DNA from: an uncultured Gammaproteobacteria bacterium
GTDB taxonomy: Bacteria > Patescibacteriota > Microgenomatia > UBA10105
Assembly (NCBI GenBank): GCA_964412165.1
Contig: CAYPMW010000002.1
Coordinates: 1,324-65,323, forward strand
Reading direction: 5' to 3'
Length of the DNA: 64,000 nt
Of this stretch, positions 2,394-55,402 are shown one piece after another. Under the pieces are notes generated by a model, which worked only from the letters and a program-made list of their open reading frames with translations, searched no databases and was not told the origin of the DNA. Position numbers and translations under genes: made by a program. Every line of letters starts with the position of its first letter. The first letter of the stretch is position 1.

Positions 2394-2942
2394 CTAAGCA
2401 ATTTGTTTGGTGATTTCATAAAGAACGATCCCGCAGGAGACCATCACGTTAAGCGATTTATTTACCCCAAACATCGGCAGCTCAACGATCAAATCGGCGA
2501 TATCTAGTACTTCTTTTGATACTCCGTGCGTCTCGTTACCCACGACTAAAGCGAGCGGCAATTCGTATTTTGCTTGATCAAACCTTTCGCTTTTCTCGCT
2601 TTGCTCAACAACAATAATCTTGATCTCTGAATGCTGGTTCTTAAGCTTGATAATCGCTTCAATCGCAGTCAGAGCATATTCCCACTCTACCCACTTCCAC
2701 GTTGACACCGAAGCTTTCTTAATTCTTGTATGCGGTGGGGTTAGTGATTCTCCACAAATATAAATTTTTTGAGCAGCCACCGCATCTGCGAGTCGGAAAA
2801 TAGATCCGACATTATACGTATCCAGAACGTTATCAAGAATGATATAAATTGATCGTTTCTTGATAGCTTTAATTTGTTCCGGAGTCGGATCAGTTGTCCG
2901 AAGTTCCTGCGCGTTGAGCTTAAGCATATAAATATTATACAT
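2394..2942 (-). CDS. SpoU/TrmH-family (SPOUT) RNA 2'-O-methyltransferase
   Basis: IILDNVLDTYNVGSIFRLADAVAA and LVVGNETHGVSKEVL...SLNVMVSCGIVLYE are the characteristic SPOUT motifs; size 182 aa. Confidence 0.8.
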   Translation of the reverse strand: MYNIYMLKLNAQELRTTDPTPEQIKAIKKRSIYIILDNVLDTYNVGSIFRLADAVAAQKIYICGESLTPPHTRIKKASVSTWKWVEWEYALTAIEAIIKLKNQHSEIKIIVVEQSEKSERFDQAKYELPLALVVGNETHGVSKEVLDIADLIVELPMFGVNKSLNVMVSCGIVLYEITKQIA

Positions 2943-2977
2943 GAAGCCTCACGCTGCCAGTATGATACTATATCAAT

Positions 2978-3844
2978 ATGCACATCGTCTCAACATTTTT
3001 TCGAGTATTTTTCAAAAGTTTAACTTCACTGTCGTATTACCGCGATGTAGTGAAAGCACCGTTTACGTTTTCGCTTAAATATTTCCTCTTTTTTTCACTA
3101 CTTTTAGGCAGTCTCGCAACTTTCGGAGTTTCAAGTCTAGTCCTTCCCCACGTTACAGTCTTTGTAGACCGATTTGAGAAACGAGCCAACGACCTCTATC
3201 CAGAAGATTTAGTGATCACTATCAAAAACGGCATACTAACTACTAACGCCAATGATCCCATTCGTTTCCCCATCCCATTTGAATTGTTTCTGGAAATCCC
3301 ACCGGCAATCCCCGACAGCAAACAACTCTATCTCGTCACCCTTGATCCATCGTTTGTAAATTCTGAAACCAAAGTAAAGAACTCTCTATTTTATTTCACC
3401 CAAAACTACTTATATATATCTGACGGAGAAAATTCCACTCAGTACTCCTTAAGTGACTTTGGCGACGTTAAGATCACTAAAAGTGGGGTCAACAGATTTA
3501 TCCAAACCATCATCCCCTTATTAAAAATGGTACCAGCACTTCTCGTGGTAGTATTCATGCTACTTTTTTTTATCATTTGGCCTATTTTGAGACTTATAAG
3601 CCTGCTATTTCATACTACACTCCTTTTACTAGTTGCAAATCTTATTGGTATATCTCTCCCATTTGTCAAAATGTATCAGATTGGGCTGCATTCAATGACG
3701 TTTTCGACCATACTCAGGACCGTCCTGATGGCATTTTCAATTAGTCCGGCGGTTCCGCTTTTCGATTCGGTGATATTTCTTTTGTTTAATCTGGCGGTAC
3801 TTGCCGAGCTAAAACATCCACAACGCCATAAGTCCCAAAGCTAA
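2978..3844 (+). CDS. integral membrane protein, unknown function
   Basis: 288 aa with several hydrophobic helices at both ends and a central soluble segment. Confidence 0.5.
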   Translation: MHIVSTFFRVFFKSLTSLSYYRDVVKAPFTFSLKYFLFFSLLLGSLATFGVSSLVLPHVTVFVDRFEKRANDLYPEDLVITIKNGILTTNANDPIRFPIPFELFLEIPPAIPDSKQLYLVTLDPSFVNSETKVKNSLFYFTQNYLYISDGENSTQYSLSDFGDVKITKSGVNRFIQTIIPLLKMVPALLVVVFMLLFFIIWPILRLISLLFHTTLLLLVANLIGISLPFVKMYQIGLHSMTFSTILRTVLMAFSISPAVPLFDSVIFLLFNLAVLAELKHPQRHKSQS

Positions 3845-3881
3845 CATCCGTCCTTTAGGCGCCGCTGATATAATAACAGTA

Positions 3882-4646
3882 ATGTTTAAAAAATTGCTTT
3901 TGATGATCCTCGGGGTATTCGCAATCGGAATTGGGATTATTACGTATTTTGACTTGAGCGAAAAAAACGAGACTAAAGTGCCATTTGTCGTATCGCCGTC
4001 TCCCATACCATCAGCAGATGGATCTCAAATGGTAGTAGTAAACCAAAAATCATATTCGGTATTTGTACAAGCTGTGGGCGACCCTTCCCAACTCATACTC
4101 ATCCCAAATTTTAAGGATAAAATTCTTTCCCGTGAAATTATTGAAAATAATGGTTGTCTGTACGGGATAAATGGCGGTTTCTACACAACCAAAAATACCC
4201 CTCTGGGACTCTTTTATACAAAAGGGGTGTATTATGAAAAAAAGCTACATCGGTCAACGCTAACAAACGGATATGTGTTTTTCAAAGACAGAACGCTCCA
4301 CATATCAACCTCTCCTCCTGCCTCCGAATCAACTGATTTTGTTTTCCAAACCGGACCCTTTTTTACTCCGTCTACCCAACTCTCTATTGTTAATGATGAA
4401 CCTTCACGCCGGATGCTAGTGGGAATTGACTCCCGAGAAAACGGGTATTTTATAGCCGTAGTGAGTCGGGAAAATGTCCATTCGGGCCCTCTGCTTGCTG
4501 ATCTGCCACAAATCGCAGGTAAACTTAATCCCACTTTTACACAACTGGTCAATCTAGATGGCGGATCGGCATCAGCATATTATATAAAATATAAAGTTCA
4601 ATACTCCGAACTCACTCCGATTGGCAGCTTCCTGTGCGGAAAATAG
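3882..4646 (+). CDS. phosphodiester glycosidase family protein (NAGPA/DUF2233-like), membrane anchored
   Basis: N-terminal TM; YGINGGFY...LVGIDSRENGYFIAVV...NLDGGSASAYY resemble DUF2233 conserved blocks. Confidence 0.5.
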   Translation: MFKKLLLMILGVFAIGIGIITYFDLSEKNETKVPFVVSPSPIPSADGSQMVVVNQKSYSVFVQAVGDPSQLILIPNFKDKILSREIIENNGCLYGINGGFYTTKNTPLGLFYTKGVYYEKKLHRSTLTNGYVFFKDRTLHISTSPPASESTDFVFQTGPFFTPSTQLSIVNDEPSRRMLVGIDSRENGYFIAVVSRENVHSGPLLADLPQIAGKLNPTFTQLVNLDGGSASAYYIKYKVQYSELTPIGSFLCGK

Positions 4647-6642: not shown

Positions 6643-6975
6643 TCAGGTTGAAGGAGTAATAGATGGAGATGGAGAGACTTTAGCACGAGGTGAAGGTGAA
6701 ACAAGAGAAGATGGAGAAGGTGTTTCAGCCTCCGCTGTTGACTCCGGCTCCTCAGACGCATTTGGAGTCGGTTCCAAATCCGTCCCAGGTGAAGCAAAAA
6801 TAATTCGCACATTACCTTTGTCATCCGGTAAAGGAGAAATCAACCCTTGACTCCTACCTATAAACAAAAAAATTCCCATCGCAACTATCAAAACAAGTAT
6901 CACTCCAAGCAAAATAAATAATCTTATGGGTGTTGGATCTCTACCGGTTATTTCCATGACCATTGAATTATACAC
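6643..6975 (-). CDS. membrane-anchored Pro/Ser/Thr-rich protein
   Basis: One TM (LFILLGVILVLIVAMGIFLFI) followed by a PS-rich low-complexity tail; true start may be an internal Met. Confidence 0.4.
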   Translation of the reverse strand: MYNSMVMEITGRDPTPIRLFILLGVILVLIVAMGIFLFIGRSQGLISPLPDDKGNVRIIFASPGTDLEPTPNASEEPESTAEAETPSPSSLVSPSPRAKVSPSPSITPST

Positions 6976-7059
6976 TATATGATAAAATTTTCATTTTTAT
7001 GTAAGAAATATGTATTCCTTACTATAGAGAGTGCCATCAAACGTGGAAGCTAAGGTAGA

Positions 7060-9797: not shown

Positions 9798-11861
9798 TTA
9801 ACTGACGCTCGGGGGTGGTAATTTCGGCTTTGTCCACGAAGCGAAGTTGCAATCGGGGTAACGGGAGCAACCATAGAAAATTCGACCTCGCTTTGTTTTT
9901 TTGACAATTACATCGCCTTGAGAGCATTTGGGGCATCTCATGTCGATTTTTACAACGATATTTTTGGTGTATTTACAGTCCGGAAATCTCGAACAGGCCA
10001 TGAATTTACCGTACCTGCCCAGCTTAATAATCACCTCCCCCAGTTTGCACTCTGGGCATACTTCTCCTGTTTTTTCTACCGGAGCTTCAACTTTCTGTAC
10101 TGTTTCTTCGACGTGTCTTAGTTTTTCCGAGAAAGGCTTATAAAATTCGCTAATTACTGGTATCCATTCTCTTTTTCCTTCGGCTATTTCATCAAGCTCC
10201 CCTTCCATGTTGGCAGTAAATGGCAGGTTTACAATATCGGGAAAATACGCTACTAAAAAATCATTCACTAATAACCCGAGTTCTGTCGGCACAAAATTCC
10301 TTCCTGTGCGGCCGTCGGGCTTAGTTTCCTTGGCGACATACTGCCGCTCTTGGATAGTTGACAAGGTTGGCGCATATGTTGATGGCCTGCCGATTCCGTC
10401 TTCTTCAAGTGCTTTAATGAGTGAGGCTTCGCTGTAGCGTGGCGGCGGTGTAGTAAATTTTTGTTGCGGCAAGGATTCAGCTAAATCAAGCGTTTCCCCA
10501 ACTCGTACATCAGGCACTTCTTTTACCTCACTATCTCTCCCCATTACCTTTAAAAATCCGTCGAACTTAACGACCGAACCCTGTGTCTCAAACAGGTACC
10601 CGTTGGGTGTCGTAATTCGGATAGTAGTCGAATCAAAAATCGCCTCGGTCATTTGCGAAGCTAACGCCCGTTTCCAAATGAGCTCGTAGAGTTTAGTGTG
10701 GTCACTTCTGAGTGTCGTATCCCCAGATTTTAAATGTTCCGGCGAAGCGTAAATGTTGGTGGGCCGGATGGCTTCGTGTGCTTCTTGGGCTAACTTTGAT
10801 TTAGTTGTGTAGGTACGGTAATGGGAATAATTGTTTCCGTAAGTTTTTTCAATATATACTTTTGCTTGTCCTAAAAATTTCGTCGACAATACAACTGAAT
10901 CGGTGCGGTGGTAGGTAATCAATCCCTTTTCGTATAACAACTGAGCGGCTCTCATGGTACGTCTAGCAGTAAAACCCAAACGTTTTCCGGCATCGATTTG
11001 CATAGCTGATGTTGTATAAGGGGGTCCGGGATATCGCTTCACTTCTTTTTTGTCTACGGCTGATACGGTATATGGAGTCTGCCAGTCGGCAATAATTTGT
11101 TTTGCATGAGTCTCGTTTGAAATCGTAGATTTCGTATATGAATATGAACCATCAAAAAGCTTGAGCGTCTCACTAGTCTCATATTTAATCCCATCCTTGG
11201 ATTTGAGCTCAGATTCAATTTGTTTCTGCGTACTTCGGGCTACAAACTGCGAATAAATCACCCAGTATTCCTGTAAATTGAACCGTTCAATTTCCCTTTC
11301 CCTTTCAACGATCAGCCTGAGAGCTATCGACTGAACCCGCCCTGCAGACAACCATCTTCTTGACAACTTTTTCCACAACATTGGTGACAATTTGTAACCA
11401 ACTAGCCTATCTAATACACGACGGGCTTGTTGGGCATTCACCAATGGAATGTTGAGGGAACCGGAATGAGTTAGCGCTTCTTTGATAGCGTCCTCGGTGA
11501 TTTCGTGGAAAGTAATGCGCTCGAACTTATTTTCGTCTATCGTTTCATTTTTGATTTTGGCTCCCTCTTGCGAAAGGATGACCGCCATATGATATGCAAT
11601 CGCCTCGCCTTCACGATCAGGATCAGTTGCTAGCACAACCTTTATGTCATCCTTAACAAGCGTTCTTAGTTCTTTTACCCGCTTGGACTTGTCCCTGGGT
11701 ATGACGTATTTGGGAGTAAAATTTTTCTCCACGTCGACACCGAGCTCTCCTTTCGGAAGATCCCTCAAGTGTCCAAATGTTGCCTCAATCCGGTAGTCTT
11801 TCCCTAAAAACCGAGACAGGGTTCGAGCTTTAGTAGGTGATTCAACCAGAACTAGTTTCAT
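9798..11861 (-). CDS. topA: DNA topoisomerase I
   Basis: N-terminal Toprim (LVLVESPTKARTL), catalytic-core similarity throughout, C-terminal zinc ribbons (CPECK...C, CPKCS...C). Confidence 0.95.
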   Translation of the reverse strand: MKLVLVESPTKARTLSRFLGKDYRIEATFGHLRDLPKGELGVDVEKNFTPKYVIPRDKSKRVKELRTLVKDDIKVVLATDPDREGEAIAYHMAVILSQEGAKIKNETIDENKFERITFHEITEDAIKEALTHSGSLNIPLVNAQQARRVLDRLVGYKLSPMLWKKLSRRWLSAGRVQSIALRLIVEREREIERFNLQEYWVIYSQFVARSTQKQIESELKSKDGIKYETSETLKLFDGSYSYTKSTISNETHAKQIIADWQTPYTVSAVDKKEVKRYPGPPYTTSAMQIDAGKRLGFTARRTMRAAQLLYEKGLITYHRTDSVVLSTKFLGQAKVYIEKTYGNNYSHYRTYTTKSKLAQEAHEAIRPTNIYASPEHLKSGDTTLRSDHTKLYELIWKRALASQMTEAIFDSTTIRITTPNGYLFETQGSVVKFDGFLKVMGRDSEVKEVPDVRVGETLDLAESLPQQKFTTPPPRYSEASLIKALEEDGIGRPSTYAPTLSTIQERQYVAKETKPDGRTGRNFVPTELGLLVNDFLVAYFPDIVNLPFTANMEGELDEIAEGKREWIPVISEFYKPFSEKLRHVEETVQKVEAPVEKTGEVCPECKLGEVIIKLGRYGKFMACSRFPDCKYTKNIVVKIDMRCPKCSQGDVIVKKTKRGRIFYGCSRYPDCNFASWTKPKLPPPSVS

Positions 11862-11925
11862 AAAGAATTCAAAAATTAAATATCAAAATATAAAATGACA
11901 ATCCAAAAATAAAATATGTCTTTAT

Positions 11926-12026
11926 ACTATTCTTACTGTAATTTGCAACTTTTTCGAATGAAAAATGTTGCTAAATCAGTCTAGAATGCGTTATACCCGG
12001 AACATTTCATTGTGTGAAGGGTATAT
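11926..12026. repeat. ~100-nt structured repeat element, copy 1 (inverted relative to copies 2 and 3)
   Basis: ~95% identical to the reverse complement of 14601-14703; termini ATACCCTTC...GAAGGGTAT are inverted repeats. Confidence 0.85.
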
Positions 12027-12084
12027 CATTTGTGCAGTTTGAATTTTTAACAATCATTTTGATCTTTGATCTTTACATTTTGCA

Positions 12085-13188
12085 TTATTTAAGTCCGTAT
12101 TTGCCGTTTCCCAGGTCCCGTATTATACCACCCAGTTCCATTTTGGTAAGGAGAACGCTTGTTTCCTGAGCTCTTTTTTGTAAACGGCGGACGATCTCAT
12201 CAAAGTGTAGTTCACCTCCAGAAAGTAAATCAATGACGAGTTTTTCTTCAGGTAAAACATCGTTAGTGTGAATGAGTCTAACTTGGGATTTTTGCACATG
12301 TAATTCCTCAAGTATATCATCCACCCTGGTAATGACAGATGCTCCCTGTCGCAATAAACTTGCTGGACCGTCAGATAAGTAGCTCGTAATCGGACCCGGT
12401 ACGGCAAATACTTCTTTCCCTTGTTCAGCTGCGTAGCGCGCGGTGATAAGTGATCCTGAGTCGATAGCTCCTTCGGTAACTACAACACCTCGTGAGAGAC
12501 CAGATATGATACGGTTTCGTGCAGGAAACAAACCTTTGAGAACCGTGTGTCCCGGTGGAACTTCAGATACTACCGAACCGTCCTTCTCAATAATCTCCTG
12601 GTAGAGAGGCCAGTGTTCTGGCGGATAAATGACATCCACACCACATCCCAAAACTGCTATGGTAATCCCATTATGCCTTAAAGTAGTTCTGTGTGCGATG
12701 GCATCTATGCCTCTCGCCATGCCTGAGACGATAGTGAAACCGCCCGTTACTAAACCCTCCGTCAGCGTCTCGGTGACTAGTTTACCGTATGGAGTCGGTT
12801 TACGAGTCCCTACTATCGCAATTACTTGCTTTTTTGTTTCAGGTAATGCTCCTTTTATATATAGTGCAATAGGCGGATCAGGTATTGACATTAAAGGCTC
12901 GGGATACCCCGAATCCATCAATGTAATGATTTTGATTTCCTTTTGTAAAAGTTCCTCTTTAAACTGGCGCGGAATAAATCTGTCACGAAATGAGACAAAA
13001 TTAGAGGTAAGCTTTTGGGAAAGACCAATACGCGTTAATGCACTTTCGTTCGCCTTCCAGGCAGCAATGGCTGAGCCGAAATAATCCTTTAAAAGCTTAA
13101 ATCGCATCGGCCCGATGCCGGAGAATGCGCTAAATCCCAAGTATGCGTCCCGCTCACCCACCTCATTTAAATGGTGTATATTTGTCAT
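12085..13188 (-). CDS. dprA: DNA processing protein DprA (Smf)
   Basis: VAIVGTRKPTPYGKLVTETLTEGL...IVSGMARGIDAIAHR...AVLGCGVDVIYP are canonical DprA Rossmann motifs; the conserved dprA-topA neighbourhood is present. Confidence 0.9.
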   Translation of the reverse strand: MTNIHHLNEVGERDAYLGFSAFSGIGPMRFKLLKDYFGSAIAAWKANESALTRIGLSQKLTSNFVSFRDRFIPRQFKEELLQKEIKIITLMDSGYPEPLMSIPDPPIALYIKGALPETKKQVIAIVGTRKPTPYGKLVTETLTEGLVTGGFTIVSGMARGIDAIAHRTTLRHNGITIAVLGCGVDVIYPPEHWPLYQEIIEKDGSVVSEVPPGHTVLKGLFPARNRIISGLSRGVVVTEGAIDSGSLITARYAAEQGKEVFAVPGPITSYLSDGPASLLRQGASVITRVDDILEELHVQKSQVRLIHTNDVLPEEKLVIDLLSGGELHFDEIVRRLQKRAQETSVLLTKMELGGIIRDLGNGKYGLK

Positions 13189-13223
13189 GGACTAGAGTAG
13201 ACCGTATAATCGACTTACCATAC

Positions 13224-13802
13224 ATGAAACCATGTATATTATTTGATATAGATTTTACCCTGATCGACACTAATAAGCTGCATACACGGATTAAAAGATA
13301 TCTTTTTAATTTAAAAAATGCGCCATTTGTCTGGAACAATATTGCCGCTGTGAGACACGTAGCAACGTACACACACATTAAAGATCTCAATCCTACCCGA
13401 TTTGAACGCACCCTTTTTGATCCACTCTATTATACGCAAGCAGTATATCCGGATGTTGAGGCCTCCCTAATGACACTCAAACAATTTGCCCGTTTAGGCA
13501 TCTGGTCAGAGGCTAGTCCTCGCCTTCAATATATTAAGTTATTTTTCTCTCGATTATATAATTTTTTTGATCCCAACCTAATAAGTATTACGCCTTCGAA
13601 ATGCGCGTTACTTCCTCTTCTCGCGCAACGCTTTGGTCCAAATTTATATATCATCGACGACCGCCCCGATATGCTGAAAACAGCTCGAAATTATAATATT
13701 CATACAGTTTTAATTGATCGAAACAAAAAATATGTCTACTCTCCTGACTTCAACTATATCACCACTTTACTAGAAATTACCCAAATCTTTAAATTACGTT
13801 AA
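13224..13802 (+). CDS. HAD-superfamily hydrolase
   Basis: Motif I ILFDIDFTLIDT (DxDxT) and late IIDDRPD; start moved to the Met at 13224 (the track ORF starts upstream at 13143). Confidence 0.6.
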   Translation: MKPCILFDIDFTLIDTNKLHTRIKRYLFNLKNAPFVWNNIAAVRHVATYTHIKDLNPTRFERTLFDPLYYTQAVYPDVEASLMTLKQFARLGIWSEASPRLQYIKLFFSRLYNFFDPNLISITPSKCALLPLLAQRFGPNLYIIDDRPDMLKTARNYNIHTVLIDRNKKYVYSPDFNYITTLLEITQIFKLR

Positions 13803-14585
13803 CCATAATCGTCTCAAGAAACTATTGAGAAATCCTTTAGAACTCGCTAGTAATAAGATACTTCCGTAATGGAACACATAGTACCAAAGAATCCAAGAAT
13901 TTGAACTACTTCTGATGAGAATAAATGCTGCCGAGAATCCTATCGCGCACAGCACTCGAATAGTAGACAAGTCAAAGAGTGTGGAAGTATGTTCCTTCTC
14001 AATCTTAAAGGTAACTGCTAACACCAATCCGCACCATATCATCACATACGCGGTAAATGGATCCATCACTTGACCTCCTGCCACTACTACACCAAGTGCA
14101 AACCGGGCTGGATGAGTACTACTTATGATAAGTGTACCAATGACCTGATCTATTTTTTTAAGGACCATCGTATATATTAGATTCAAACCGATAAAAAAGA
14201 ACTGAAAAATTACCAGGGTAGGTAAATAAATTGTCCCTAAGAGGATCGATAATCCGATCAAGGCTATCGCATCAATCGCTATAATGAGTCGGCTCACCCG
14301 CATACGGATCCATAGACGGCGCCGTTTAAATCTATGGGAGTAATCATGGGTGTAATCAAAAGCATTATTACATGCATAAATACCACCATACATAAGCATC
14401 CCGTGTATAAGAAAAATCTTTATAAATATGAATATATGTGATACTGATATAGATAAACCCGAAGTAAAGATAAATCCAATGAGGAGATGAAAAAAGTTCC
14501 CCAAGCGAATAAACCGGTGTGTATGAATATAGATAGCAATCAAAGTTGCTATCCGGTTTAGTGACAGCTTGACGTCGTGATTCAT
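13794..14585 (-). CDS. UbiA-family prenyltransferase-like membrane protein
   Basis: ACNNAFDYTHDYSHR fits the UbiA N[DN]xxDxxxD...R motif; ~8 TM helices. Confidence 0.55.
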   Translation of the reverse strand: MNHDVKLSLNRIATLIAIYIHTHRFIRLGNFFHLLIGFIFTSGLSISVSHIFIFIKIFLIHGMLMYGGIYACNNAFDYTHDYSHRFKRRRLWIRMRVSRLIIAIDAIALIGLSILLGTIYLPTLVIFQFFFIGLNLIYTMVLKKIDQVIGTLIISSTHPARFALGVVVAGGQVMDPFTAYVMIWCGLVLAVTFKIEKEHTSTLFDLSTIRVLCAIGFSAAFILIRSSSNSWILWYYVFHYGSILLLASSKGFLNSFLRRLWLT

Positions 14586-14600
14586 ACTAAATACACACGT

Positions 14601-14703
14601 ATACCCTTCTCACAATGAAATGTTCCGGGTATAACTCCTTCTAGACTGAATTAGCAACATTTTTCATTCGAAAAAGTTGCAAATTACAGTAAGAAGAGTA
14701 TTC
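14601..14703. repeat. ~100-nt structured repeat element, copy 2
   Basis: Inverted repeat of copy 1; shares its first ~52 nt and last ~22 nt with copy 3. Confidence 0.85.
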
Positions 14704-14740
14704 AATTAGCATGCACATCAACAGGAAAAATAGTCAAGTT

Positions 14741-16534
14741 TTATCGTTTAAACCATTCTTCAAGAATTTTTTTGGCAATAGGAGCAGCGACATTTGAACC
14801 TTCTCCGCCTTTCTCCAGAAGCACTGTCACCGATATTTCCGGCTCACCTGTAATAACTGAATTTGATTTTTCTCCTGGCAGTGGAGCAAATACACTAAAC
14901 CAGGCATGGGTTTTGTTTTCCGGATCACCGAATTCTGCAGTACCTGTTTTACACGCCACGGGCACGCTTTTTTGTCTTCTTTCACCATTCCCATTTTCAA
15001 ATTTTTCCTGAACAACCGAAAAATTAAATAGCGGCCACCCAGTACCCCTATATGTGGTATCGGAACCTTCCATGCACGCCCGTCGCATGCCTTCTCTCAC
15101 CAGTATAACCGTATCCTCACTCAAGTGAAGATCTCTGCATGTACCTTTGTCAGTCTTATGGAGCGTCGGCTTACACAATTTTCCGTTCGCGGCGATAGCG
15201 TTTGTCCATAGATTAACTTGAAGCGGTGTAGTCTGAAGATCTCCCTGCCCGATTGACACATGATATGTATCTCCCAGATACCAACCTCCCCCACGGACTT
15301 TTTTCCGCCACTCAGGATCGGGCATCACTCCCTCTGCTTCACCAGATAGTTCAAGACCTGTTTTTTGTCCGATACCTAATTCTTTCCCCCAGTGAGCGAG
15401 TGTTTCAATTCCTGTCTTTTCGCCTAAGTGATAAAAATAAATATCATTGCTTCTCGCGATCCCCTTTACAATATCTACCATGCCGTCTTTTTTACCATTT
15501 TGGATAAAGTTCCAATTGCCGAATGAAAATGTCCCTATGGTCAAAATTCCCGTATCCTCAAACAGGGTTGTACCTGAGACTGCTTTTGACTCAAGCCCTG
15601 CGATGCTTGATACAATTTTAAAGGTTGAACCGGGAGGATATACTCCTGATATGGCCCGGTTAAATAACGGCTTAGCCTCGCTTTTGAATAATTTCTCGTA
15701 TTCACTCCGAGTTATCCCCTGATGAATCAAATTAGGGTTAAAGGATGGCGTTGAGATAAGAGCTAGTATTTCGCCTGTGGTGGGTTTAGTGACCACTACC
15801 GCACCGGTATACCCTCCCATCGCCTGATAAGCGACTTGCTGTAGATCAGCGTCAAGCGAGAGCGTGAGATCTCGTCCGGGTTTAGCGTCAATTTTACCCA
15901 AAGTCCTCACTTTCACACCACTTGAATCGACTTCAATGAGTTCTCTGCCATTTATACCTTTGAGTTCTGGATTAAAAGATTCTTCTATTCCCATCCTTCC
16001 CAAACGGTCACCGGGTTCAAAATCTTGGTAAGCGTAATATGGGTTCTTCAATTCTTCCTGCGAAATTTCGCCTAAGAATCCCAACACATGTGCAGTTTCC
16101 TGGGGATACTCATATTCACGTAGATAATCGTGCTCCGAGTAATATTTTTCTTTGCTGTACCCTTTTTCTTTCCATTCTTCCTCGGTCAAAAATTCTACCC
16201 CGCACGTTTTTCCTACCTCGCACGGTGGGCTTACTCTGTAGGCCGGAATGTTTCGCACGAGCGGTACACCCCGACGGTCTTTGATAGTTCCTCGTGGAGC
16301 ATGGATGACGGATGAACGAATGCGGTTTTCTTCGGATAGTTCACGGTTCTTTGCACCTGAAACAATAGTAAGATGAAATAGCCTAAGAAATAATACACTG
16401 AAGATAACTATCAAAATAAAATATAAAAAAGTAATGCGTGCACCCCAACCTCTGATTGGAGGTGGTGGAGTGGCGCTTCGCCTCTTGGTCATTTTGATAA
16501 TACTATCTGAGAAAGCTTGGCCAAGTTTCACCAT
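14741..16534 (-). CDS. mrdA: penicillin-binding protein 2 (elongasome transpeptidase)
   Basis: N-terminal TM plus PBP dimerisation region; STFK (SxxK), SND (SxN) and KTGTAE (KTG) motifs. Confidence 0.9.
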   Translation of the reverse strand: MVKLGQAFSDSIIKMTKRRSATPPPPIRGWGARITFLYFILIVIFSVLFLRLFHLTIVSGAKNRELSEENRIRSSVIHAPRGTIKDRRGVPLVRNIPAYRVSPPCEVGKTCGVEFLTEEEWKEKGYSKEKYYSEHDYLREYEYPQETAHVLGFLGEISQEELKNPYYAYQDFEPGDRLGRMGIEESFNPELKGINGRELIEVDSSGVKVRTLGKIDAKPGRDLTLSLDADLQQVAYQAMGGYTGAVVVTKPTTGEILALISTPSFNPNLIHQGITRSEYEKLFKSEAKPLFNRAISGVYPPGSTFKIVSSIAGLESKAVSGTTLFEDTGILTIGTFSFGNWNFIQNGKKDGMVDIVKGIARSNDIYFYHLGEKTGIETLAHWGKELGIGQKTGLELSGEAEGVMPDPEWRKKVRGGGWYLGDTYHVSIGQGDLQTTPLQVNLWTNAIAANGKLCKPTLHKTDKGTCRDLHLSEDTVILVREGMRRACMEGSDTTYRGTGWPLFNFSVVQEKFENGNGERRQKSVPVACKTGTAEFGDPENKTHAWFSVFAPLPGEKSNSVITGEPEISVTVLLEKGGEGSNVAAPIAKKILEEWFKR

Positions 16535-39313: not shown

Positions 39314-40894
39314 ATGAATAAAACGTACTTAATAATACTCCTTGTAGCTGTAATTCTTGGTGGAGTTTTTCTTTTTTTAAGGCAACTTGGGAACATCAAC
39401 CCGAAGGGAGAATTTTCTTCCGAAGTAACGAAAGCAAATAGTACTAAACCTCAAGAAATTGTGTCCCTCAAATATGGCGATACTTATAACTTAACCGCCA
39501 GTGTTGTCAAAAAATCTATAAACGGGCAAGAGATGAAAATGCTCGCCTACAATGGCTCAATTCCAGGTCCACTCATCAAAGTTCCTCAAGGAGCGCAAAT
39601 CACTATTAAGTTTACAAATAATACCGATGTTGACTCAACAATTCATTCGCACGGAGTCAGAGTTGATAACAAATTTGATGGCGTTCCCGATTTAACCCAG
39701 CATCCGGTAAAACCAGGGCAATCGTTTATCTATACGCTTAAATTCCCAGACGCAGGTGTTTACTGGTATCACCCACACATTCGCGAGGATTATGCTCAAG
39801 AATTGGGATTGTATGGGAATTTCTTGGTCACACCGAGCACCCCTAATTACTGGGCCGAAGTAGATCGCGAAGAAACTCTTTTCCTGGATGACATTTTGAT
39901 CGAAAACGGGCAAATCGCCAAATTTGATAAATCAGTTGTCGATCACACACTCATGGGTCGATTCGGTAAGACTATGCTTGTGAACGGAGATGATAACTAC
40001 AAGTTATCAGTTAAACAAGGTGAACGAGTTCGCTTCTATATTACCAATGCCGCTAATGCCAGAACTTTTAACTTTGCCATACCTAATACTCGCATGAAAT
40101 TAGTCGGGTCTGATAATGGTAAGTATGAACGAGAGGAATGGATTGATTCGGTAACCATCGGACCATCAGAGCGGCAAATAGTGGAGATCTGGTTTAACCA
40201 GAATGGAGACTACAAAATTGAAAACCAAACTCCTGAAAAAACTTATAATTTAGGGACTATCGCTGTTGCCCAAAATCCCGTTACCGTATCCTATCTAATG
40301 GTACCGCGTACTAATCAAGACGTCATTTATGCAATTGACTCGCTCAGACCTAAGTTTACCAAAGCACCCGATAAAGATATCAAACTCACGCTACAAATGG
40401 GCTCCTCACCTACCGAAGGGAATAATTCTATGGGCGGGCACATGATGGGTAACGGACAAATGATGCAAAACACTCAAATGACTATGGGAGACGTCAAAAA
40501 AATCGAATGGGAAGATGATATGGGGATGATGAATGCGCAATCAACCAAGGATTCTCTTAAGTGGAAACTTGTTGACCAATCAACAAACATGGAGAACATG
40601 GATATTAATTGGCAGTTCAAAAAAGGCGATGTGGTTAAGGTGAAGATTTTCAATGACGATAAATCCATGCACCCGATGCAGCACCCAATTCATATTCATG
40701 GCCAGAGATTTCTGGTACTTTCTACCAATGGCATTAAGAACAATAATCTTGTCTGGAAAGACACCACGCTCATCCAAACTGGCGACACCGTCGAGCTGCT
40801 TGTACAAATGGACAACCCCGGTGACTGGGTCATTCACTGCCATATTCCGGAACACATGGAATCAGGAATGATGAGCGAATTTAAGGTAATATAA
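39314..40894 (+). CDS. multicopper oxidase (CueO/laccase-like) with a Met-rich insert
   Basis: Copper ligand motifs HSHGVRV, WYHPH, HPIHIHGQRF, HCHIPEHMESGMM; Met-rich segment MGGHMMGNGQMMQNTQMTMG...DDMGMMNAQ. Confidence 0.9.
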   Translation: MNKTYLIILLVAVILGGVFLFLRQLGNINPKGEFSSEVTKANSTKPQEIVSLKYGDTYNLTASVVKKSINGQEMKMLAYNGSIPGPLIKVPQGAQITIKFTNNTDVDSTIHSHGVRVDNKFDGVPDLTQHPVKPGQSFIYTLKFPDAGVYWYHPHIREDYAQELGLYGNFLVTPSTPNYWAEVDREETLFLDDILIENGQIAKFDKSVVDHTLMGRFGKTMLVNGDDNYKLSVKQGERVRFYITNAANARTFNFAIPNTRMKLVGSDNGKYEREEWIDSVTIGPSERQIVEIWFNQNGDYKIENQTPEKTYNLGTIAVAQNPVTVSYLMVPRTNQDVIYAIDSLRPKFTKAPDKDIKLTLQMGSSPTEGNNSMGGHMMGNGQMMQNTQMTMGDVKKIEWEDDMGMMNAQSTKDSLKWKLVDQSTNMENMDINWQFKKGDVVKVKIFNDDKSMHPMQHPIHIHGQRFLVLSTNGIKNNNLVWKDTTLIQTGDTVELLVQMDNPGDWVIHCHIPEHMESGMMSEFKVI

Positions 40895-40898
40895 AAAT

Positions 40899-41375
40899 AT
40901 GCTTCATAATAAGCTAGCCAAGAAACATACATATTATAATAACCAATTTTTTGGGAAATGGGCCAGATTTTATGATTATGAAAAATACTTTATGTTTCCG
41001 ATAAGACAAAAGGCAGCCAAATTTTTCCCTCTCAAAGCACCTGCCAAAATTATTGATGTAGCTACAGGCACTGGTGCTCAAGCATATGAGTTGGCGAAAC
41101 TGGGGTTGGATGTGACGGGTGTTGATTTATCGCCTGAAATGCTAGAACAGGCAAAAAAGAAGGGCTCAATCTTGATCGTTGATTACATGGAACCAAGAAA
41201 ACATGTGGTAGGATGGTTGACGCATCCTCTTATTAAGCTATATGAAACTCCTCATTACGACCTTTTCATTAAAAAAGGTCTTGAACGATACTTACGTCAA
41301 GTTGATCATAAAATCAACTGTTATACTCACTTTTTGGGAATAGTCCAAATCGCGCTAATTACAAATACAAAGTAA
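40899..41375 (+). CDS. class I SAM-dependent methyltransferase, short/possibly truncated
   Basis: Motif I IIDVATGTGAQAYELAKLGLDVTGVDLS; only 158 aa. Confidence 0.5.
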   Translation: MLHNKLAKKHTYYNNQFFGKWARFYDYEKYFMFPIRQKAAKFFPLKAPAKIIDVATGTGAQAYELAKLGLDVTGVDLSPEMLEQAKKKGSILIVDYMEPRKHVVGWLTHPLIKLYETPHYDLFIKKGLERYLRQVDHKINCYTHFLGIVQIALITNTK

Positions 41376-41400
41376 ACAGATTGAAAAGAATGTTTATGTG

Positions 41401-41514
41401 ATGGGAAAAAGAGATAGACTATTCCATGCTCTTTTAAATATCGTCAATAATGCTATTAAATATAATGAAGGTAAAGGCACTACCATTAGTGCTACATTCC
41501 CGCGAACAAATTAA
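41401..41514 (+). pseudogene. histidine-kinase ATPase-domain fragment (N-box only)
   Basis: 37-aa ORF MGKRDRLFHALLNIVNNAIKYNEGKGTTISATF matches the HATPase_c N-box (L..NL..NAIKY), compare NLLDNAIKYSSRGGTITIS in the intact kinase at 55739. Confidence 0.5.
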
Positions 41515-41593
41515 GAACTCCTCATTTCTTATTCATCAAATCTTAATCCTCAACTTGATAAGATTTGTTCAATCAGAAAATAACTCCCACTAA

Positions 41594-41614
41594 CCCCCTC
41601 TTATAAAGAGGGGG
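41594..41614 (+). terminator. GC-clamped hairpin CCCCCTCTT-ATA-AAGAGGGGG (intrinsic terminator candidate)
   Basis: Perfect 9-bp stem with a 3-nt loop; the downstream run is only weakly T-rich. Confidence 0.4.
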
Positions 41615-41632
41615 AACTAATTTGAAAAGAGT

Positions 41633-43492
41633 ATGAAAATGAACAAAACCACTGTTCCCATCAAAGGTATGCACTGCCGCTCATGTGAGCTCTTAATTGA
41701 AGATGAAGTATCTCAAATTCCCGGAGTCACCAAAGTTGAAGTCAGCGAAAAAAAGGCTTGTGCCATCGTTCACTTTGAAAATATACTCAATGCTGCAGAC
41801 ATTGAAGGCGCAGTGAAGAAAGCCGGTTATGAAGTTGGTTTTAATGAGACGAAACCGTGGATTTCCAGAAAGCTAGATGACTATCTGGATATTTTTTATG
41901 CCGTTTTTGTACTTGGTGCATTATACGTTGTCGTCAGTATTTTAGGCCTCACAAAGATTTTTGCGACCGGCGCGGGACATCCAACTAATTTAATCACCGT
42001 TCTGATGATTGGTTTAACTGCGGGATTATCCACTTGTATGGCACTCATTGGCGGTTTGATACTTGGAGTTTCAGCCAGATTTTCGGAAATACATCCTGCT
42101 GCAACTGGTATGGAAAAATTCAAACCGCACTTATTTTTTAATGCAGGCAGGATCGTGTCATACATATTTTTTGGTGGAGTTATCGGTCTTTTAGGCTCAA
42201 TGTTTCAGCTTTCCGGGTTTTCATTGGGTCTTATGACGTTAGCCGTTGCTTTGGTTATGTTGACACTTGGTATGCAACTAACAGGATTATTTCCCCGCCT
42301 TGAAAATTTTAAACTTACATTACCTCCAACCATTGGAAAACTACTTGGATTCCAAAGTCAACAAAATCAAGAATATAGTCATAAAAATGCGTTTGTTATG
42401 GGAGCTACCACCTTTTTCCTTCCCTGTGGTTTTACCCAGGCAATGCAACTATATGCTATTTCTACAGGTAATTTTCTATCTGGGGCTCTTATCATGGGAG
42501 TATTTGCTCTCGGAACCGCCCCTGGGCTTTTAGGAATTGGAGGACTCACGTCAGTTATTAAAGGCTTATTTGCCCAAAAGTTTTTCAAATTTGCAGGAGT
42601 AGTTGTCGTTGCTTTGTCTCTTTTCAATCTCAATAATGGTTTAAATCTTATTGGAGTAAGTCCAACCAGTCTCTTCGAAAATGGAACAAATGTACTTGCT
42701 GCTTTCGATGATACTACTACCGAAATACAAGGAAACACCCAAGTAGTAAGAATGAAACAGTCTGCATCAGGGTATGAACCTAATTCCTTTACAATCACCA
42801 AGGGCGTACCGGTCAAATGGATCGTAACTTCAACTGATCCAAATAGTTGCGCAGCGTCTATTCTGGCTTCAAAAATTGGAGTCCGCGCAAATATGCATCC
42901 TGGAGAAAATGTGTTTGAATTTACTCCCACAGAAACAGGAAAAATTCCCTTCTCTTGTATGATGGGCATGTTTCGAGGGTCGTTTACCGTGATTGAAAAC
43001 ACAGGAAAGCCAACCGCTGCTGCGGAAATAAAAGGTGAAACAAATCCTGCACTTGCTCAAGCAGCCGGCTTGCCCACCGACTTGTCCGCCGGAGCGCGAG
43101 CGCAGGTGGAAGCTTTAGCGAAGGCAGGAAGCTGCGGATCAGGTGGATGTGGATGTGGCGGTAGAGCTGCCGCCAAAGTACCTGCGAATGCAACCCCTGA
43201 ACCAGCAGCGTTAAAAGGTGATACTCAAATAATCAAAGCAACTTATACAGTCAGTGGTGACATAACGCCAAAAGTATTCACGGTTAAAAAAGGCAGCAAA
43301 GTCCGCTTTGAAGTAACTGCAAAAGACGATGGGTATGGCTGCATGAGTTCGATCATGATCCCAAGAATCACGTCTCCTCAACTATTAGAAAAAGATAAAA
43401 CACTCATTCTTGAGTTTACTCCGAACAAAACTGGAGATTTACCAATCACCTGTGCAATGGGAATGCAACGAGGAAGTATCAGGGTAATTTAA
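41633..43492 (+). CDS. HMA-domain / DsbD-CcdA-like membrane core / two C-terminal cupredoxin-like domains fusion protein
   Basis: N-terminal GMHCRSCE HMA fold; 6-8 TM with conserved TM cysteines (GLSTCMAL, FFLPCGF); two soluble repeats ...PNSCAAS...FSCMMGMFRGSFTVI and ...GYGCMSS...ITCAMGMQRGSIRVI plus a CGSGGCGCGG linker. Confidence 0.65.
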   Translation: MKMNKTTVPIKGMHCRSCELLIEDEVSQIPGVTKVEVSEKKACAIVHFENILNAADIEGAVKKAGYEVGFNETKPWISRKLDDYLDIFYAVFVLGALYVVVSILGLTKIFATGAGHPTNLITVLMIGLTAGLSTCMALIGGLILGVSARFSEIHPAATGMEKFKPHLFFNAGRIVSYIFFGGVIGLLGSMFQLSGFSLGLMTLAVALVMLTLGMQLTGLFPRLENFKLTLPPTIGKLLGFQSQQNQEYSHKNAFVMGATTFFLPCGFTQAMQLYAISTGNFLSGALIMGVFALGTAPGLLGIGGLTSVIKGLFAQKFFKFAGVVVVALSLFNLNNGLNLIGVSPTSLFENGTNVLAAFDDTTTEIQGNTQVVRMKQSASGYEPNSFTITKGVPVKWIVTSTDPNSCAASILASKIGVRANMHPGENVFEFTPTETGKIPFSCMMGMFRGSFTVIENTGKPTAAAEIKGETNPALAQAAGLPTDLSAGARAQVEALAKAGSCGSGGCGCGGRAAAKVPANATPEPAALKGDTQIIKATYTVSGDITPKVFTVKKGSKVRFEVTAKDDGYGCMSSIMIPRITSPQLLEKDKTLILEFTPNKTGDLPITCAMGMQRGSIRVI

Positions 43493-43502
43493 AAAGATTT
43501 AG

Positions 43503-43709
43503 ATGACACAAACAATAACACTAAAAGGTTTAACCTGTGACGTCTGCGTCAAACTTATCATCAAAAAATTTATGCGAATTCCTGGAGTCGCCTCTACTCG
43601 AGTGACGCTTGATGGCTTAGCTCATGTTGAAGCAAGTCGCACGATTCCCGCAAATGAATACAAACAGGTTTTAACTGGCCTTCCGTACCAAGTAGTAACA
43701 GTTGCATAA
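43503..43709 (+). CDS. CopZ-like heavy-metal-associated (HMA) metallochaperone
   Basis: 68 aa; [15 protein letters not shown] is a variant of the GMxCxxC fold signature. Confidence 0.65.
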
Positions 43710-43717
43710 GAAGATTT

Positions 43718-46700
43718 ATGACACAACAAATTGCACTAAAAATTGACGGTATGCACTGCGCTTCATGTGAGACATTGATTGGTGAAGAATTGAGAGAAAC
43801 TTCTGGCGTATCGGGCGTATCGGTGAGTGCCAAAGAAAAAGTAGCCAGGTTACTACTAGACATGGAAAAAGCTTCTATAGAAGATGTTTTGGCTGCAGTT
43901 GATCGGGCTGGTTATAAAGCCACTGTCGCCAATCTTCAAACCCAAGTCATAGATCAACCTCAATTGGTAGTAAGAAATCAATCAAGCCGAAAACCAATGA
44001 AAATCCAGTTTGAATCACATCTCAAGGCTGAAGGTAAAATTCTTCAGGACGAAAGTGGTAAAGCATATTTTGACGGCAGCATTCGAAATGATAGAAAAGC
44101 AGTCGTTTCTGCTCATAAAGAAGATTTAGGATCAGAAGAAAAAGTAGGTCAATTGGTAAATAGTTTTGGTATGGTGGAAATTTTCAATGCAAATTTTTCC
44201 ACACCCAAAACTAATGGACACAGGAATGGAATAGGGAATTATTCTTCGAGCGAAGGAACGTTAGCGACTGAGTCGAGAAGTAACCTTAATCAAAGTACAG
44301 TTCTCGACTCCGCTTCGCTCCGCTCGAACAATAAGGGCCGGAACAAACGCATTAAACTTTCGCTTACGGGAATGCATTGTGCATCATGTGCAGGTTTAAT
44401 AGAACGATCGCTCAAAAAGGTAAACGGTGTCAAAGAAGCAAATGTTAATTTTGCTGCTGAAAAAGCCAGTGTCGTATTTGATGAAACCCAAACTTCAATT
44501 GACAATCTGACCGAAGCTGTAAAAAAGGTCGGTTACAGAGCTGCTTATCAAGAACAGGAAAATCCAGAACTTGAACGAAAAAAACGTCATGCAGAAATTA
44601 AACAGTTGTTTAACAAATTCTTGGGCAGCTTTATAATAAGCTCCCCAATGCTTTACTTTATGTTCTTTGACTTTTTTTCAGGACTGCCCGGTAAAGCATT
44701 TTTGACACCTTTAATTGGACTTATTTCTTTAGTGCTTGCTACTCCGGTGCAATTTTTATTTGGTGCCTCATTTTATAAAGGCATGTGGTCGGCACTCCGG
44801 ATGAAAACGTTTAACATGGATAGCTTGATCGCTATTGGAACCTCAACTGCGTTCTTTTATTCACTGATAAATTATGGACTCTACGCGCTCACTAAAGGAT
44901 CATTGTTTGGGGTTGGTGGAGAAAAAATACCTGAACTCTATTTTGAAACTGCGGCATTTTTGATTACATTCGTAATTTTGGGTAAATGGCTGGAAAAACG
45001 GGCCAAAGGAAAAACTTCAGATGCCATTAAAAAACTCATGGGTCTCCAAGCAAAAACGGCTCGCGTATTACGCTTTGCGAGCCGTCCTGAACGAAGTGAA
45101 GGACCCCCGTACCTTCAGGATGACAAAGTATTTATGGATATTCCCGTTGATCAGGTTGTAAATGGCGACACAATTCTTGTTCGTCCCGGAGAAAAAGTTC
45201 CGGTTGATGGAAAAATTATCAAAGGTTCCTCCGCCGTGGATGAATCAATGCTCACCGGTGAAAGTTTACCAGTTGAAAAGAATATCAATGACATAGTAAT
45301 TGGTGCTACCATCAATAAGACTGGTAGTTTTGAGTTCATGGCTACTCGAGTCGGTTCTGAAACTGCGCTGGCGCAAATCATCCGCCTGATTGAAGAAGCT
45401 CAAGGCTCCAAAGCGCCCATTCAAGCGTTTGCTGACAAAATATCCGCATATTTCGTACCGGCTGTTATAGGCATTGCTATTTTGACTTTTGTGGTCTGGT
45501 ATTTCTTACTTGGCTCAACACTCGCATTTGCTTTGATGGCATTTACTGCAGTAATTGTCATTGCCTGTCCCTGCGCACTGGGTCTAGCCACCCCAACAGC
45601 ATTGATGGTGGGAACTGGTAAAGGGGCTGAACAAGGAATTTTAATAAAGGGTGGTGAACCACTCGAAGGAGCCTGCAAAGTTAATGCAGTGGTTTTTGAT
45701 AAAACAGGTACTTTAACAAATGGTAAGCCAGCGGTTACAGATACACTGAGTCTTTCCGAGCTTGATGAAGATGAAGTGATTGAAATTGCAGCCTCCCTTG
45801 AAAAATCTTCGGAACACCCTTTAGCTGAGGCAATCGTCAATTATGCTGAGGAAGAAACAATCAATACAACTGAAGTGAATAACTTTAAAGCTATTCCCGG
45901 ACACGGAGTACGAGGCGTGGTCAACGGAAACCTCTATTACATGGGTAATAGAAAGCTTATTGAAGACGTTGCTCAACTTGAAGTTGGTCGAATAAACCGT
46001 AAATTGGAACGACTTGAGGAGCAGGGCAAAACTGCCATGATTCTTACATCTGCCGAAAAAGTCTTAGGAATTGTAGCGGTCGCAGATACCGTCAAGGAAA
46101 CATCTCGTGAGGCAGTGGAAGCATTGAAGATTCGCAAAATTGATGTCTGGATGATTACGGGCGACAATAGACGTACTGCTTTGACGATAGCTAAAGAGGT
46201 TGGTATATCAGAACAATATGTTATGGCCGAAGTTCTACCTCAAAATAAGGCCGAAGCAGTACGTAAACTTCAAGTACCAAATACCAATTTCCAAACAGAG
46301 AAAAGAAATTTTATTTTTAGAATTTTGAATTTATTTGGAATTTGGAATTTGGAATTTGATAATTCCCACAAACGTACTGTTGCGTTTGTGGGCGATGGTA
46401 TCAATGATGCGCCAGCTTTAGCTCAGGCAGATATTGGCATTGCTATGGGATCAGGCACTGATGTGGCCATGGAGACTGGCGGTATTGTAATTATCAAAAA
46501 CGACTTACGTGATGTGGTGAAAGCATTTGATTTGTCAAAAGAAACGATGCAAAAGATCAAACAGAATATGTTTTTTGCGCTCTTCTACAACGTGATCGGT
46601 ATCCCCATTGCCGCCCGTGTATTCATGGGCATTGGATTAGTACTTAAACCAGAATTGGCAGGTCTAGCTATGGCACTTTCATCGGTCTCCGTGGTCACCA

Positions 46701-55226: not shown

Positions 55227-55305
55227 AATATTTAGTATTTGCTAAAAATAGTATTTTGTCAAGTATCTAACATTTAAAATAAAAACGAAATAGTCATTTA
55301 ACATT

Positions 55306-55402
55306 ATACCCTTCACACAATGAAATGTTCCGGGTATAACTCCTTCTAGACTGATTTAATCCCGATATTACATCGGGACAAATTACAGTAAGAAGGGTAT
55401 AC
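55306..55402. repeat. ~100-nt structured repeat element, copy 3 (adjacent to tRNA-Tyr)
   Basis: First 52 nt and last 22 nt match copy 2 (14601-14703); the internal hairpin is replaced by CCCGATATTACATCGGG; termini ATACCCTTC/GAAGGGTAT. Confidence 0.8.

What the first reader, a model, noticed from the sequence alone, without database searches (positions are those of the whole stretch)
11926..14703. dprA-HAD-UbiA module bracketed by two ~100-bp near-identical inverted repeats
Sequences at 11926-12026 and 14601-14703 are ~95% identical as reverse complements of each other. They sit exactly in the two intergenic gaps that bound a three-gene segment (dprA, a HAD hydrolase, a UbiA-like prenyltransferase). 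This geometry would let homologous recombination invert the segment, or marks it as a composite insertion. The repeats are too long and too conserved to be chance in a compact low-GC genome.
Basis: seen in the sequence. Interest (0 to 1): 0.7.

Follow-up and report, generated by a model that had tools for sequence, protein, structure and literature searches.

The report
Two copies of a small mobile repeat
The two inverted 100-base repeats are real, but they are two of at least three copies in this window of a small non-coding mobile element (a MITE) that landed separately in neighbouring gene gaps of a candidate-phyla-radiation bacterium, not a device built to flip or carry the three genes between them.

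Summary
Observation confirmed. Window 11923-12025 and 14600-14702 are reverse complements, 97/103 identical.

Interpretation mostly not supported. The arms are copies of a dispersed 103-nt element with these features:
- a perfect 10-bp terminal inverted repeat (TATACCCTTC...GAAGGGTATA);
- TA at both tips;
- 34% GC;
- no transposase-sized reading frame;
- a strong two-hairpin fold.

A third copy lies at 55305-55401. Five more lie on contigs of one JGI metagenome, with unrelated flanks and in both orientations. One of those contigs comes from a relative whose proteins are only 38-71% identical to this genome's.

The organism is a Microgenomates/Gottesmanbacteria-like CPR bacterium. In relatives, mreB-PBP2-dprA-topA is a tight co-directional cluster, and PBP2 is followed directly by the UbiA-like gene, with no repeat in either gap. 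Both junctions are therefore ancestral, the segment sits in its ancestral orientation, and it is not a composite insertion.

The arms are no more alike than each is to copies in the other organism.

Rare RecA-type inversion across the arms is possible (45-bp perfect run) but could not be tested, because every available same-strain contig ends inside an arm.

Verdict: a new MITE family, which is a known kind of element. Interest is low to moderate.

The parts
11923..12025 (+). MITE copy c1 (left arm), 103 nt, in the dprA|topA gap
   Evidence: CM 120.3 bits. It differs from the family consensus at 6 positions, including a compensatory C-G to A-U change in the long stem.
14600..14702 (-). MITE copy c2 (right arm), 103 nt, in the PBP2|UbiA-like gap
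   Evidence: CM 121.6 bits. It matches the metagenome copies at 99/103 positions.
55305..55401 (-). MITE copy c3, 97 nt. It has the same termini, outer stem and 3' hairpin, but its apical hairpin is replaced by an unrelated one (CCCGAT...ATCGGG). It lies 30 nt downstream of tRNA-Tyr and 79 nt upstream of the 1688-aa ORF.
   Evidence: CM 95.1 bits; fold; tRNA; ORF.
9798..11861 (-). topA (type I DNA topoisomerase), outside the left arm
   Evidence: Pfam Topoisom_bac, Toprim and Zn_ribbon_Top1. Homologues are named Microgenomates or Gottesmanbacteria.
12085..13188 (-). dprA. The longest ORF is 367 aa; Logan aa, starting at 13107.
   Evidence: Pfam DNA_processg_A and DprA_WH; gene call in L001. 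It lies directly upstream of topA in four relatives.
13143..13802 (+). HAD-like hydrolase (weak, just below the Pfam cut-off)
   Evidence: HAD_2 at 23.4 bits against a cut-off of 23.8.
13794..14585 (-). UbiA-like prenyltransferase (weak Pfam match, nearly orphan)
   Evidence: UbiA at 32.5 bits against a cut-off of 34.2. Only 2 homologues were found at E<=1e-20. The homologue in L002 follows PBP2 co-directionally.
14741..16534 (-). PBP2-type transpeptidase, outside the right arm
   Evidence: Pfam Transpeptidase and PBP_dimer.

Best explanation
The two arms are independent insertions of a miniature inverted-repeat transposable element (MITE). They sit in opposite orientation in two neighbouring, pre-existing intergenic gaps of a Microgenomates-like CPR genome.

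The element is 103 nt long (99 nt if the outer TA on each side is a duplicated target). It has a perfect 10-bp terminal inverted repeat, TA at both tips, no transposase-sized ORF, and two stable hairpins.

Inferred mechanism: a DDE transposase encoded elsewhere, not seen here, recognises the terminal repeats and cuts and pastes the element, plausibly into TA sites as IS630/Tc1-mariner elements do. A pair of copies bracketing three genes is then a by-product of the element's density, about one copy per 20 kb in this window.

Shown here: the repeat, its family, its sharp ends and terminal repeats, its fold, filled versus empty orthologous gaps, and the ancestral gene order.

Inferred: the transposase-driven mechanism, TA as the target duplication, and a recent horizontal origin.
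For: Family and boundaries
- Eight copies have unrelated flanks, and similarity stops exactly at TATACCCTTC...GAAGGGTATA.
- Four complete metagenome copies and one cut by the contig end have identical sequence, which suggests a recent burst.
- Copies are intergenic and lie in both orientations relative to their neighbours.
- The element is 34% GC against about 41% for the window.

Structure
- z-scores are -5 to -8 as RNA or DNA on either strand.
- One compensatory pair change is present, and c3 keeps a hairpin of different sequence at the apex.

Filled versus empty orthologous gaps
- dprA|topA is 223 nt here, against 3, 55 and 65 nt in L013, L015 and L016.
- PBP2|next gene is 155 nt here, against 28, 33 and 2 nt in L002, L014 and L015.
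- SpoU|DUF1189 is about 135 nt with the element in L004, against 35 nt in the window and 52 nt in L015.

Other
- A diverged member with the same architecture is present in relative L015 (6958-7048; CM E=0.003).
- The features match the published definition of bacterial MITEs: under 200 bp, non-coding, terminal repeats, 5'-TA-3' termini, A+T-rich, long stem-loops (PMC2229807).
- There was no Rfam match at E<=10.
Against: - No autonomous IS with matching ends and no transposase was found, but only 64 kb of this genome and short metagenome contigs could be examined.
- The target-site duplication is not demonstrated. TA or TATA at the tips could be part of the terminal repeat, and copy c2 begins AATAC rather than TATAC.
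- No base-level empty site was available, because the nearest relatives are too diverged.
- Near-identity between diverged hosts could also reflect selection on a functional element.
Confidence: 0.8

Rival explanations
1. Invertible segment. The arms serve as substrates for homologous (RecA) or site-specific recombination that flips dprA-HAD-UbiA, changing expression of these genes or of topA.
For: The inverted geometry is real, and the arms share a 45-bp perfect run inside 97/103 identity. That is long enough for occasional RecA-mediated exchange (established knowledge of minimal homology lengths). All same-strain contigs break in the arms, so an alternative orientation is not excluded.
Against: - The present orientation equals the ancestral PBP2-dprA-topA and PBP2-UbiA order of five relatives.
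- No invertase or integrase domain is present in the window.
- The arms are ordinary members of a dispersed family and are not homogenised relative to copies in another organism.
- Inversion would break the conserved dprA-topA tandem.
Confidence: 0.07
2. Functional structured element rather than a transposon. This would be a dispersed RNA or DNA module, such as an orientation-independent terminator or mRNA-stabilising hairpin, a small RNA gene family, or a protein-binding site, kept similar by selection.
For: - The fold is very stable on both strands.
- One compensatory change is present, and the hairpin is retained at the apex of c3.
- Six of eight copies lie 16-62 nt downstream of a gene or tRNA 3' end.
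- Identity is 94-96% between organisms whose proteins are 38-71% identical.
- The outward-facing GAAGGG at each tip sits 8 nt before the ATG of the DUF1189 gene in L004.
Against: - There is no T-run after either hairpin, and the terminator scan finds nothing in the arms.
- Orientation relative to the upstream gene is 3 sense and 3 antisense.
- The orthologous gaps in relatives lack the element.
- Perfect terminal repeats, TA tips and identical copies within one genome are hallmarks of transposition.
- No Rfam family matched.
- A secondary role acquired by the host is compatible with the MITE explanation and does not replace it.
Confidence: 0.1
3. Composite transposon or imported island. The two arms mobilised the three-gene cargo together into this site.
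For: Inverted flanking repeats are the classical composite-transposon geometry. The HAD and UbiA-like genes are absent between PBP2 and dprA in L014 and L015.
Against: - The arms are 103 nt with no transposase.
- dprA is at its ancestral place next to topA in four relatives.
- The UbiA-like gene follows PBP2 without any repeat in L002.
- The boundaries of the variable gene content therefore do not coincide with the arms.
Confidence: 0.02

Closest known systems
RUP (repeat unit of pneumococcus), the IS630-Spn1-dependent MITE of Streptococcus pneumoniae
   Same: Its size is about 107 bp against 103 bp here. It has short terminal inverted repeats (9 bp against 10 bp), TA at the termini, intergenic dispersed copies, no coding capacity and highly similar copies (PMC2229807).
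   Different: There is no sequence similarity. No cognate IS630-type element was identified here. The host is a CPR bacterium. Copy number per genome is unknown.
Correia/NEMIS elements of Neisseria
   Same: They are about 100-155 bp with TA target or termini and stable hairpin transcripts. Length variants differ by an internal block, as c3 differs from c1 and c2. They lie in intergenic positions next to genes and are shared between species (PMC2229807).
   Different: Correia terminal repeats are about 24-26 bp, and the elements carry IHF sites and outward promoters that have been tested experimentally. None of this was tested here, and the promoter-like matches are not above chance.
ERIC/IRU elements of enterobacteria
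   Same: They are imperfect palindromes of about 127 bp with short terminal repeats and TA tips. Their sequence is conserved across diverged species, which parallels the 94-96% identity seen here between diverged hosts (PMC2229807).
   Different: The sequence and host are different, and ERIC mobility itself is unresolved.
Site-specific invertible segments (Hin/Gin/Cin, fim switch, shufflons)
   Same: Inverted repeats bracket a DNA segment.
   Different: Those systems use short recombinase-specific repeats, an adjacent invertase or integrase gene, and a promoter or alternative gene ends inside the segment. None of these is present here.

Membership tests
Bacterial MITE | Small (<200-300 bp) and without a transposase gene | tested here: met
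   The unit is 103 nt. Five of its six frames contain stops, and the one open frame is only 34 codons.
Bacterial MITE | Terminal inverted repeats | tested here: met
   TATACCCTTC / GAAGGGTATA is perfect over 10 bp in c3 and in the metagenome copies. It matches at 8/10 and 7/10 positions in c1 and c2.
Bacterial MITE | Multiple dispersed copies with unrelated flanks and sharp common ends | tested here: met
   There are 3 copies in the window and 5 on JGI contigs, plus 1 more inferred from an NCBI ORF. Flanks are unalignable immediately outside the termini.
Bacterial MITE | Target-site duplication | tested here: inconclusive
   TA (or TATA) is present at both tips in 6 of 7 complete copies, and no duplication lies outside them. 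It cannot be separated from the terminal repeat without a base-level empty site.
Bacterial MITE | Presence/absence polymorphism at orthologous sites | tested here: met
   Three gaps are filled in one genome and short and empty in relatives. This holds at gene-order resolution only.
Bacterial MITE | Cognate autonomous IS with matching ends | tested here: inconclusive
   No transposase domain was found in the scanned window ORFs of 150 aa or more. There was no match in the plasmid, phage or viral collections. The rest of the genome was not available.
IS630/Tc1-mariner-derived MITE | Insertion at TA with TA duplication, and terminal repeats similar to those of an IS630-family member | not testable with these tools
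   The TA tips are consistent. No IS reference library was available and no IS was found.
REP/REPIN with RAYT transposase | 20-40-nt palindromic units, often in inverted pairs, with a single-copy Y1 (RAYT) gene and no terminal repeat or target duplication | tested here: not met
   The unit has 10-bp terminal repeats and TA tips. No Y1_Tnp domain is present in the window, although the rest of the genome is unseen.
Site-specific invertible element | Adjacent invertase or integrase, with repeats specific to the switch | tested here: not met
   No recombinase domain is present in the window. The repeats are members of a dispersed family.
Composite transposon | Flanking elements that encode a transposase, and cargo foreign to the site | tested here: not met
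   The arms are non-coding. The positions of dprA and the UbiA-like gene are ancestral.
DGR template/variable repeat pair | Direct repeats with the variable repeat inside a target gene, mismatches at template adenines, and a nearby reverse transcriptase | tested here: not met
   The repeats are inverted and intergenic. The mismatches are T/A, A/C, A/T, T/G, C/A and T/A. No reverse transcriptase domain was found.
Known RNA family (Rfam 15) | Covariance-model match | tested here: not met
   There is no hit at gathering thresholds in the window, and none at E<=10 in 11800-14850.

The most novel reading that the evidence does not exclude
The element may be more than a selfish MITE. On this reading it stays 94-96% identical between CPR organisms whose orthologous proteins are only 38-71% identical for one of two reasons. 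Either it is being exchanged horizontally right now among co-occurring, DNA-scavenging Patescibacteria, or it has been taken over by the host as a functional two-hairpin module, such as a transcript-end or stability element or an outward ribosome-binding site. The c1/c2 pair could then generate a low-level inversion polymorphism that uncouples dprA from topA.
Probability: 0.15. Interest if true: 0.55.

Novelty: new member of a known kind. Interest (0 to 1): 0.3.

Why it matters
CPR/Patescibacteria genomes are small and are thought to carry few mobile elements. Two full-text searches found no paper about MITEs in this group, only three with incidental co-mentions.

A MITE at roughly one copy per 20 kb, nearly identical in two genus-level-diverged relatives, would be a handy marker of recent DNA exchange among these uncultured bacteria. 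It also has practical consequences. It breaks short-read assemblies, since three Logan contigs end inside the arms. It also seeds spurious ORF calls, such as the 69-aa NCBI protein that starts inside a copy.

For the flagged locus itself the message is deflationary. The dprA-HAD-UbiA bracket is a coincidence of two insertions, not a purpose-built switch or island.

Tried and rejected
- **Bacteroidota-type promoter.** A promoter (TAnnTTTG) plus 5' leader was my first idea, from TAATTTG in the arm. I dropped it once TopA homologues placed the organism in Microgenomates/Gottesmanbacteria and the copies proved to lie in both orientations. The sigma-70 scan is not above shuffles (12 found against 10.0 +/- 3.2).
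- **Rfam.** There was nothing at gathering thresholds or at E<=10.
- **Genome collection.** The GTDB species-representative scan with a 20-mer gave only a chance hit in a GC-rich coding region (L003), so this species is not in that collection.
- **Metagenome scan.** Two of the 7 hits (L007, L008) were chance 20-mer matches.
- **Viral, plasmid and phage collections.** None.
- **Extra copies in the window.** nhmmer and a covariance model with filters off found only the three; the next best hits were at E of about 0.08 or worse.
- **L011.** Its first 19 nt looked like a novel junction but are a Nextera adapter.
- **Exact look-ups.** Look-ups of the UbiA-like protein and of P0123 found no retrievable contig. 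Cluster look-up gave no organism names.
- **Six-frame peptide search.** The search with a 103-aa query built from five of the element's translated segments found only one protein. This route is insensitive because most copies are not called as ORFs.
- **DGR, integron attC, and IS200/IS605 or TnpB-type ends.** I considered these and rejected them on anatomy. The repeats have terminal inverted repeats, lie in intergenic gaps in inverted orientation, show non-adenine mismatches, and have no reverse transcriptase, integrase or Y1 gene nearby.
Full report
**1. Observation**

The inverted repeat is real. The repeat finder gives arms at 11924-12025 and 14600-14701: 102 nt, 95% complementary, 2574 nt apart. 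After comparison with further copies, the unit is 103 nt: 11923-12025 on the + strand and 14600-14702 on the - strand. The two arms match at 97/103 positions and share a 45-nt perfect run. A 32-mer from the arm occurs exactly twice in the window, against 0.00 expected in shuffles.

The gene labels hold (Pfam):
- topA 9798-11861 (-)
- dprA 12085-13188 (-)
- a weak HAD_2 hit 13143-13802 (+)
- a weak UbiA hit 13794-14585 (-)
- PBP2 14741-16534 (-)

Both arms sit in intergenic gaps.

**2. The pair is not unique**

A blastn of the arm against the window found a third copy at 55305-55401. nhmmer and a covariance model (95 bits) confirmed it. This copy keeps the termini, the outer stem and the 3' hairpin. 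Its apical hairpin is replaced by an unrelated hairpin. It lies 30 nt downstream of tRNA-Tyr and upstream of a 1688-aa ORF.

A 20-mer from the conserved 3' hairpin was scanned against public collections.
- GTDB species representatives gave only a chance hit.
- JGI metagenomes gave seven contigs. Five of them, all from Ga0265292, carry copies: four full and one cut by the contig end. The other two were chance matches.

Aligned in register, all copies begin TATACCCTTCTTACTG and end GTGTGAAGGGTATA, and similarity stops abruptly at those points. The flanks are unrelated. The five metagenome copies have identical sequence.

A peptide search with the element's translated frames found a 69-aa NCBI-annotated ORF that starts inside yet another copy.

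**3. Anatomy**

| Feature | Result |
|---|---|
| Length | 103 nt |
| GC content | 34%, against about 41% for the window |
| Terminal inverted repeat | perfect 10 bp, TATACCCTTC / GAAGGGTATA |
| Tips | TA at both ends |
| Coding capacity | none of transposase size |
| Fold | 66-nt imperfect hairpin plus a 34-nt hairpin |
| Fold z-score | -5 to -8 as RNA or DNA, on either strand |

One stem pair shows a compensatory C-G to A-U change in c1. No Rfam family matches, even at E<=10.

These features match those listed for bacterial MITEs: under 200 bp, non-coding, terminal repeats, 5'-TA-3' termini, A+T-rich, long stem-loops (PMC2229807). RUP of S. pneumoniae (107 bp, 9-bp terminal repeat, TA) is the closest analogue in form.

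**4. Host and synteny**

TopA homologues name the clade as Candidatus Microgenomates / Gottesmanbacteria (Patescibacteria, CPR). The nearest non-identical TopA is 74% identical.

Gene order in relatives:
- In L015, mreB-PAP2-PBP2-dprA-topA are co-directional and tightly packed.
- L014 has the same order, with one extra gene.
- L013 and L016 have dprA-topA separated by 3 and 65 nt.
- L002 has PBP2 followed co-directionally, after 28 nt, by a homologue of the UbiA-like gene.

None of these gaps contains the element. Both junctions occupied by the arms are therefore ancestral junctions that were later enlarged by a 103-nt insertion. The dprA|topA gap grew to 223 nt and the PBP2|UbiA gap to 155 nt. 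The segment is in its ancestral orientation, which rules out a composite insertion and argues against a fixed inversion.

**5. Mobility and spread**

Contig L004 is syntenic with window 2394-4646. Amino-acid identities are SpoU 70.6%, DUF1189 41.8% and NAGPA 38.0%. That makes it as distant from the window organism as L013, L015 and L016.

In L004 the SpoU|DUF1189 gap holds the element. In the window (35 nt) and in L015 (52 nt) the same gap is empty. The L004 copy is nevertheless 97/103 and 99/103 identical to the window's arms, as close as the arms are to each other. I read this as recent horizontal spread of the family, presumably together with an autonomous partner. Selection on the sequence is the alternative.

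L015 also carries a diverged member with the same architecture (6958-7048; CM E=0.003) and a degenerate remnant. The family is therefore not confined to two genomes.

**6. What could not be shown**

- No transposase or recombinase domain occurs in any of the window ORFs of 150 aa or more that I scanned. The plasmid, phage and viral collections gave nothing. The mobilising enzyme is therefore inferred, not seen.
- The target duplication (TA, TATA or none) cannot be separated from the terminal repeat without a base-level empty site.
- Inversion in the population is untestable here. The three same-strain Logan contigs (L001, L011, L012) all stop inside the arms, as expected for a k-mer assembler meeting a repeat. 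The odd 19 nt at the start of L011 are a Nextera adapter.

**7. Function**

Copies lie in both orientations relative to neighbouring genes. Of the six that follow a gene or tRNA 3' end, three are sense and three antisense. No T-run follows either hairpin, and the terminator scan finds nothing in the arms. Promoter-like matches in the scanned region are no more frequent than in shuffles.

A secondary role is possible but unsupported. Candidates are transcript-end hairpins, or the outward GAAGGG acting as a ribosome-binding site, as its spacing in L004 suggests.

**8. Verdict**

The interpretation as an invertible or composite module is not supported. The best explanation (confidence about 0.8) is two independent insertions of a previously undescribed MITE family of Microgenomates-like CPR bacteria. 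That makes it a new member of a known kind.

The one point that goes beyond routine is the near-identity of the element between genus-level-diverged hosts, together with the lack of any paper about MITEs in CPR: two full-text searches returned only three incidental co-mentions. Interest 0.3.

Noticed in passing
window 55305-55401: The third copy of the element has its apical hairpin swapped for an unrelated hairpin (CCCGAT...ATCGGG). The termini, outer stem and 3' hairpin are unchanged. This modular subfamily structure recalls the short and long Correia variants.
   Followed up: partly
L004 698-800 compared with window 2943-2977: A relative with only 38-71% protein identity carries the element, 94-96% identical to the window's arms, in the SpoU|DUF1189 gap. 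That gap is empty in the window and in L015. This points to recent horizontal spread or to selection.
   Followed up: partly
L015 6958-7048 and 10586-10667: A diverged member of the same repeat family (CM 21.9 bits, E=0.003) lies just downstream of topA in a relative. A degenerate remnant lies between NAGPA and DUF1189.
   Followed up: partly
window 13794-14585: The UbiA-like protein is nearly orphan. Only two homologues were found at E<=1e-20 among 5.8 billion proteins: one is the same strain and the other is 35% identical. Its Pfam UbiA score is below the gathering cut-off. It sits beside PBP2, with PAP2 genes nearby, which hints at a cell-envelope lipid-carrier role.
   Followed up: no
P0123 (NCBI protein, on a 33.7-kb contig): This 69-aa annotated ORF begins inside a copy of the element (MLLIQSRRSYTRNISLCEGY...). 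It is a likely gene-calling artefact seeded by the repeat's one open frame.
   Followed up: partly
L011 1-19: The Logan contig starts with the Nextera adapter sequence (AGATGTGTATAAGAGACAG) fused to the repeat. This is an assembly artefact, not a junction.
   Followed up: yes
window 39314-47269: A copper-handling cluster lies here: a multicopper oxidase, a DsbD_2-cupredoxin-HMA fusion protein and an unusually long (1183 aa) P-type ATPase with HMA domains. This is a sizeable investment for a small CPR genome.
   Followed up: no
window 50160-55226 (-): This giant 1688-aa ORF has only CBM_4_9 and C-terminal SH3_3 matches. It lies immediately downstream of element copy c3 and tRNA-Tyr.
   Followed up: no
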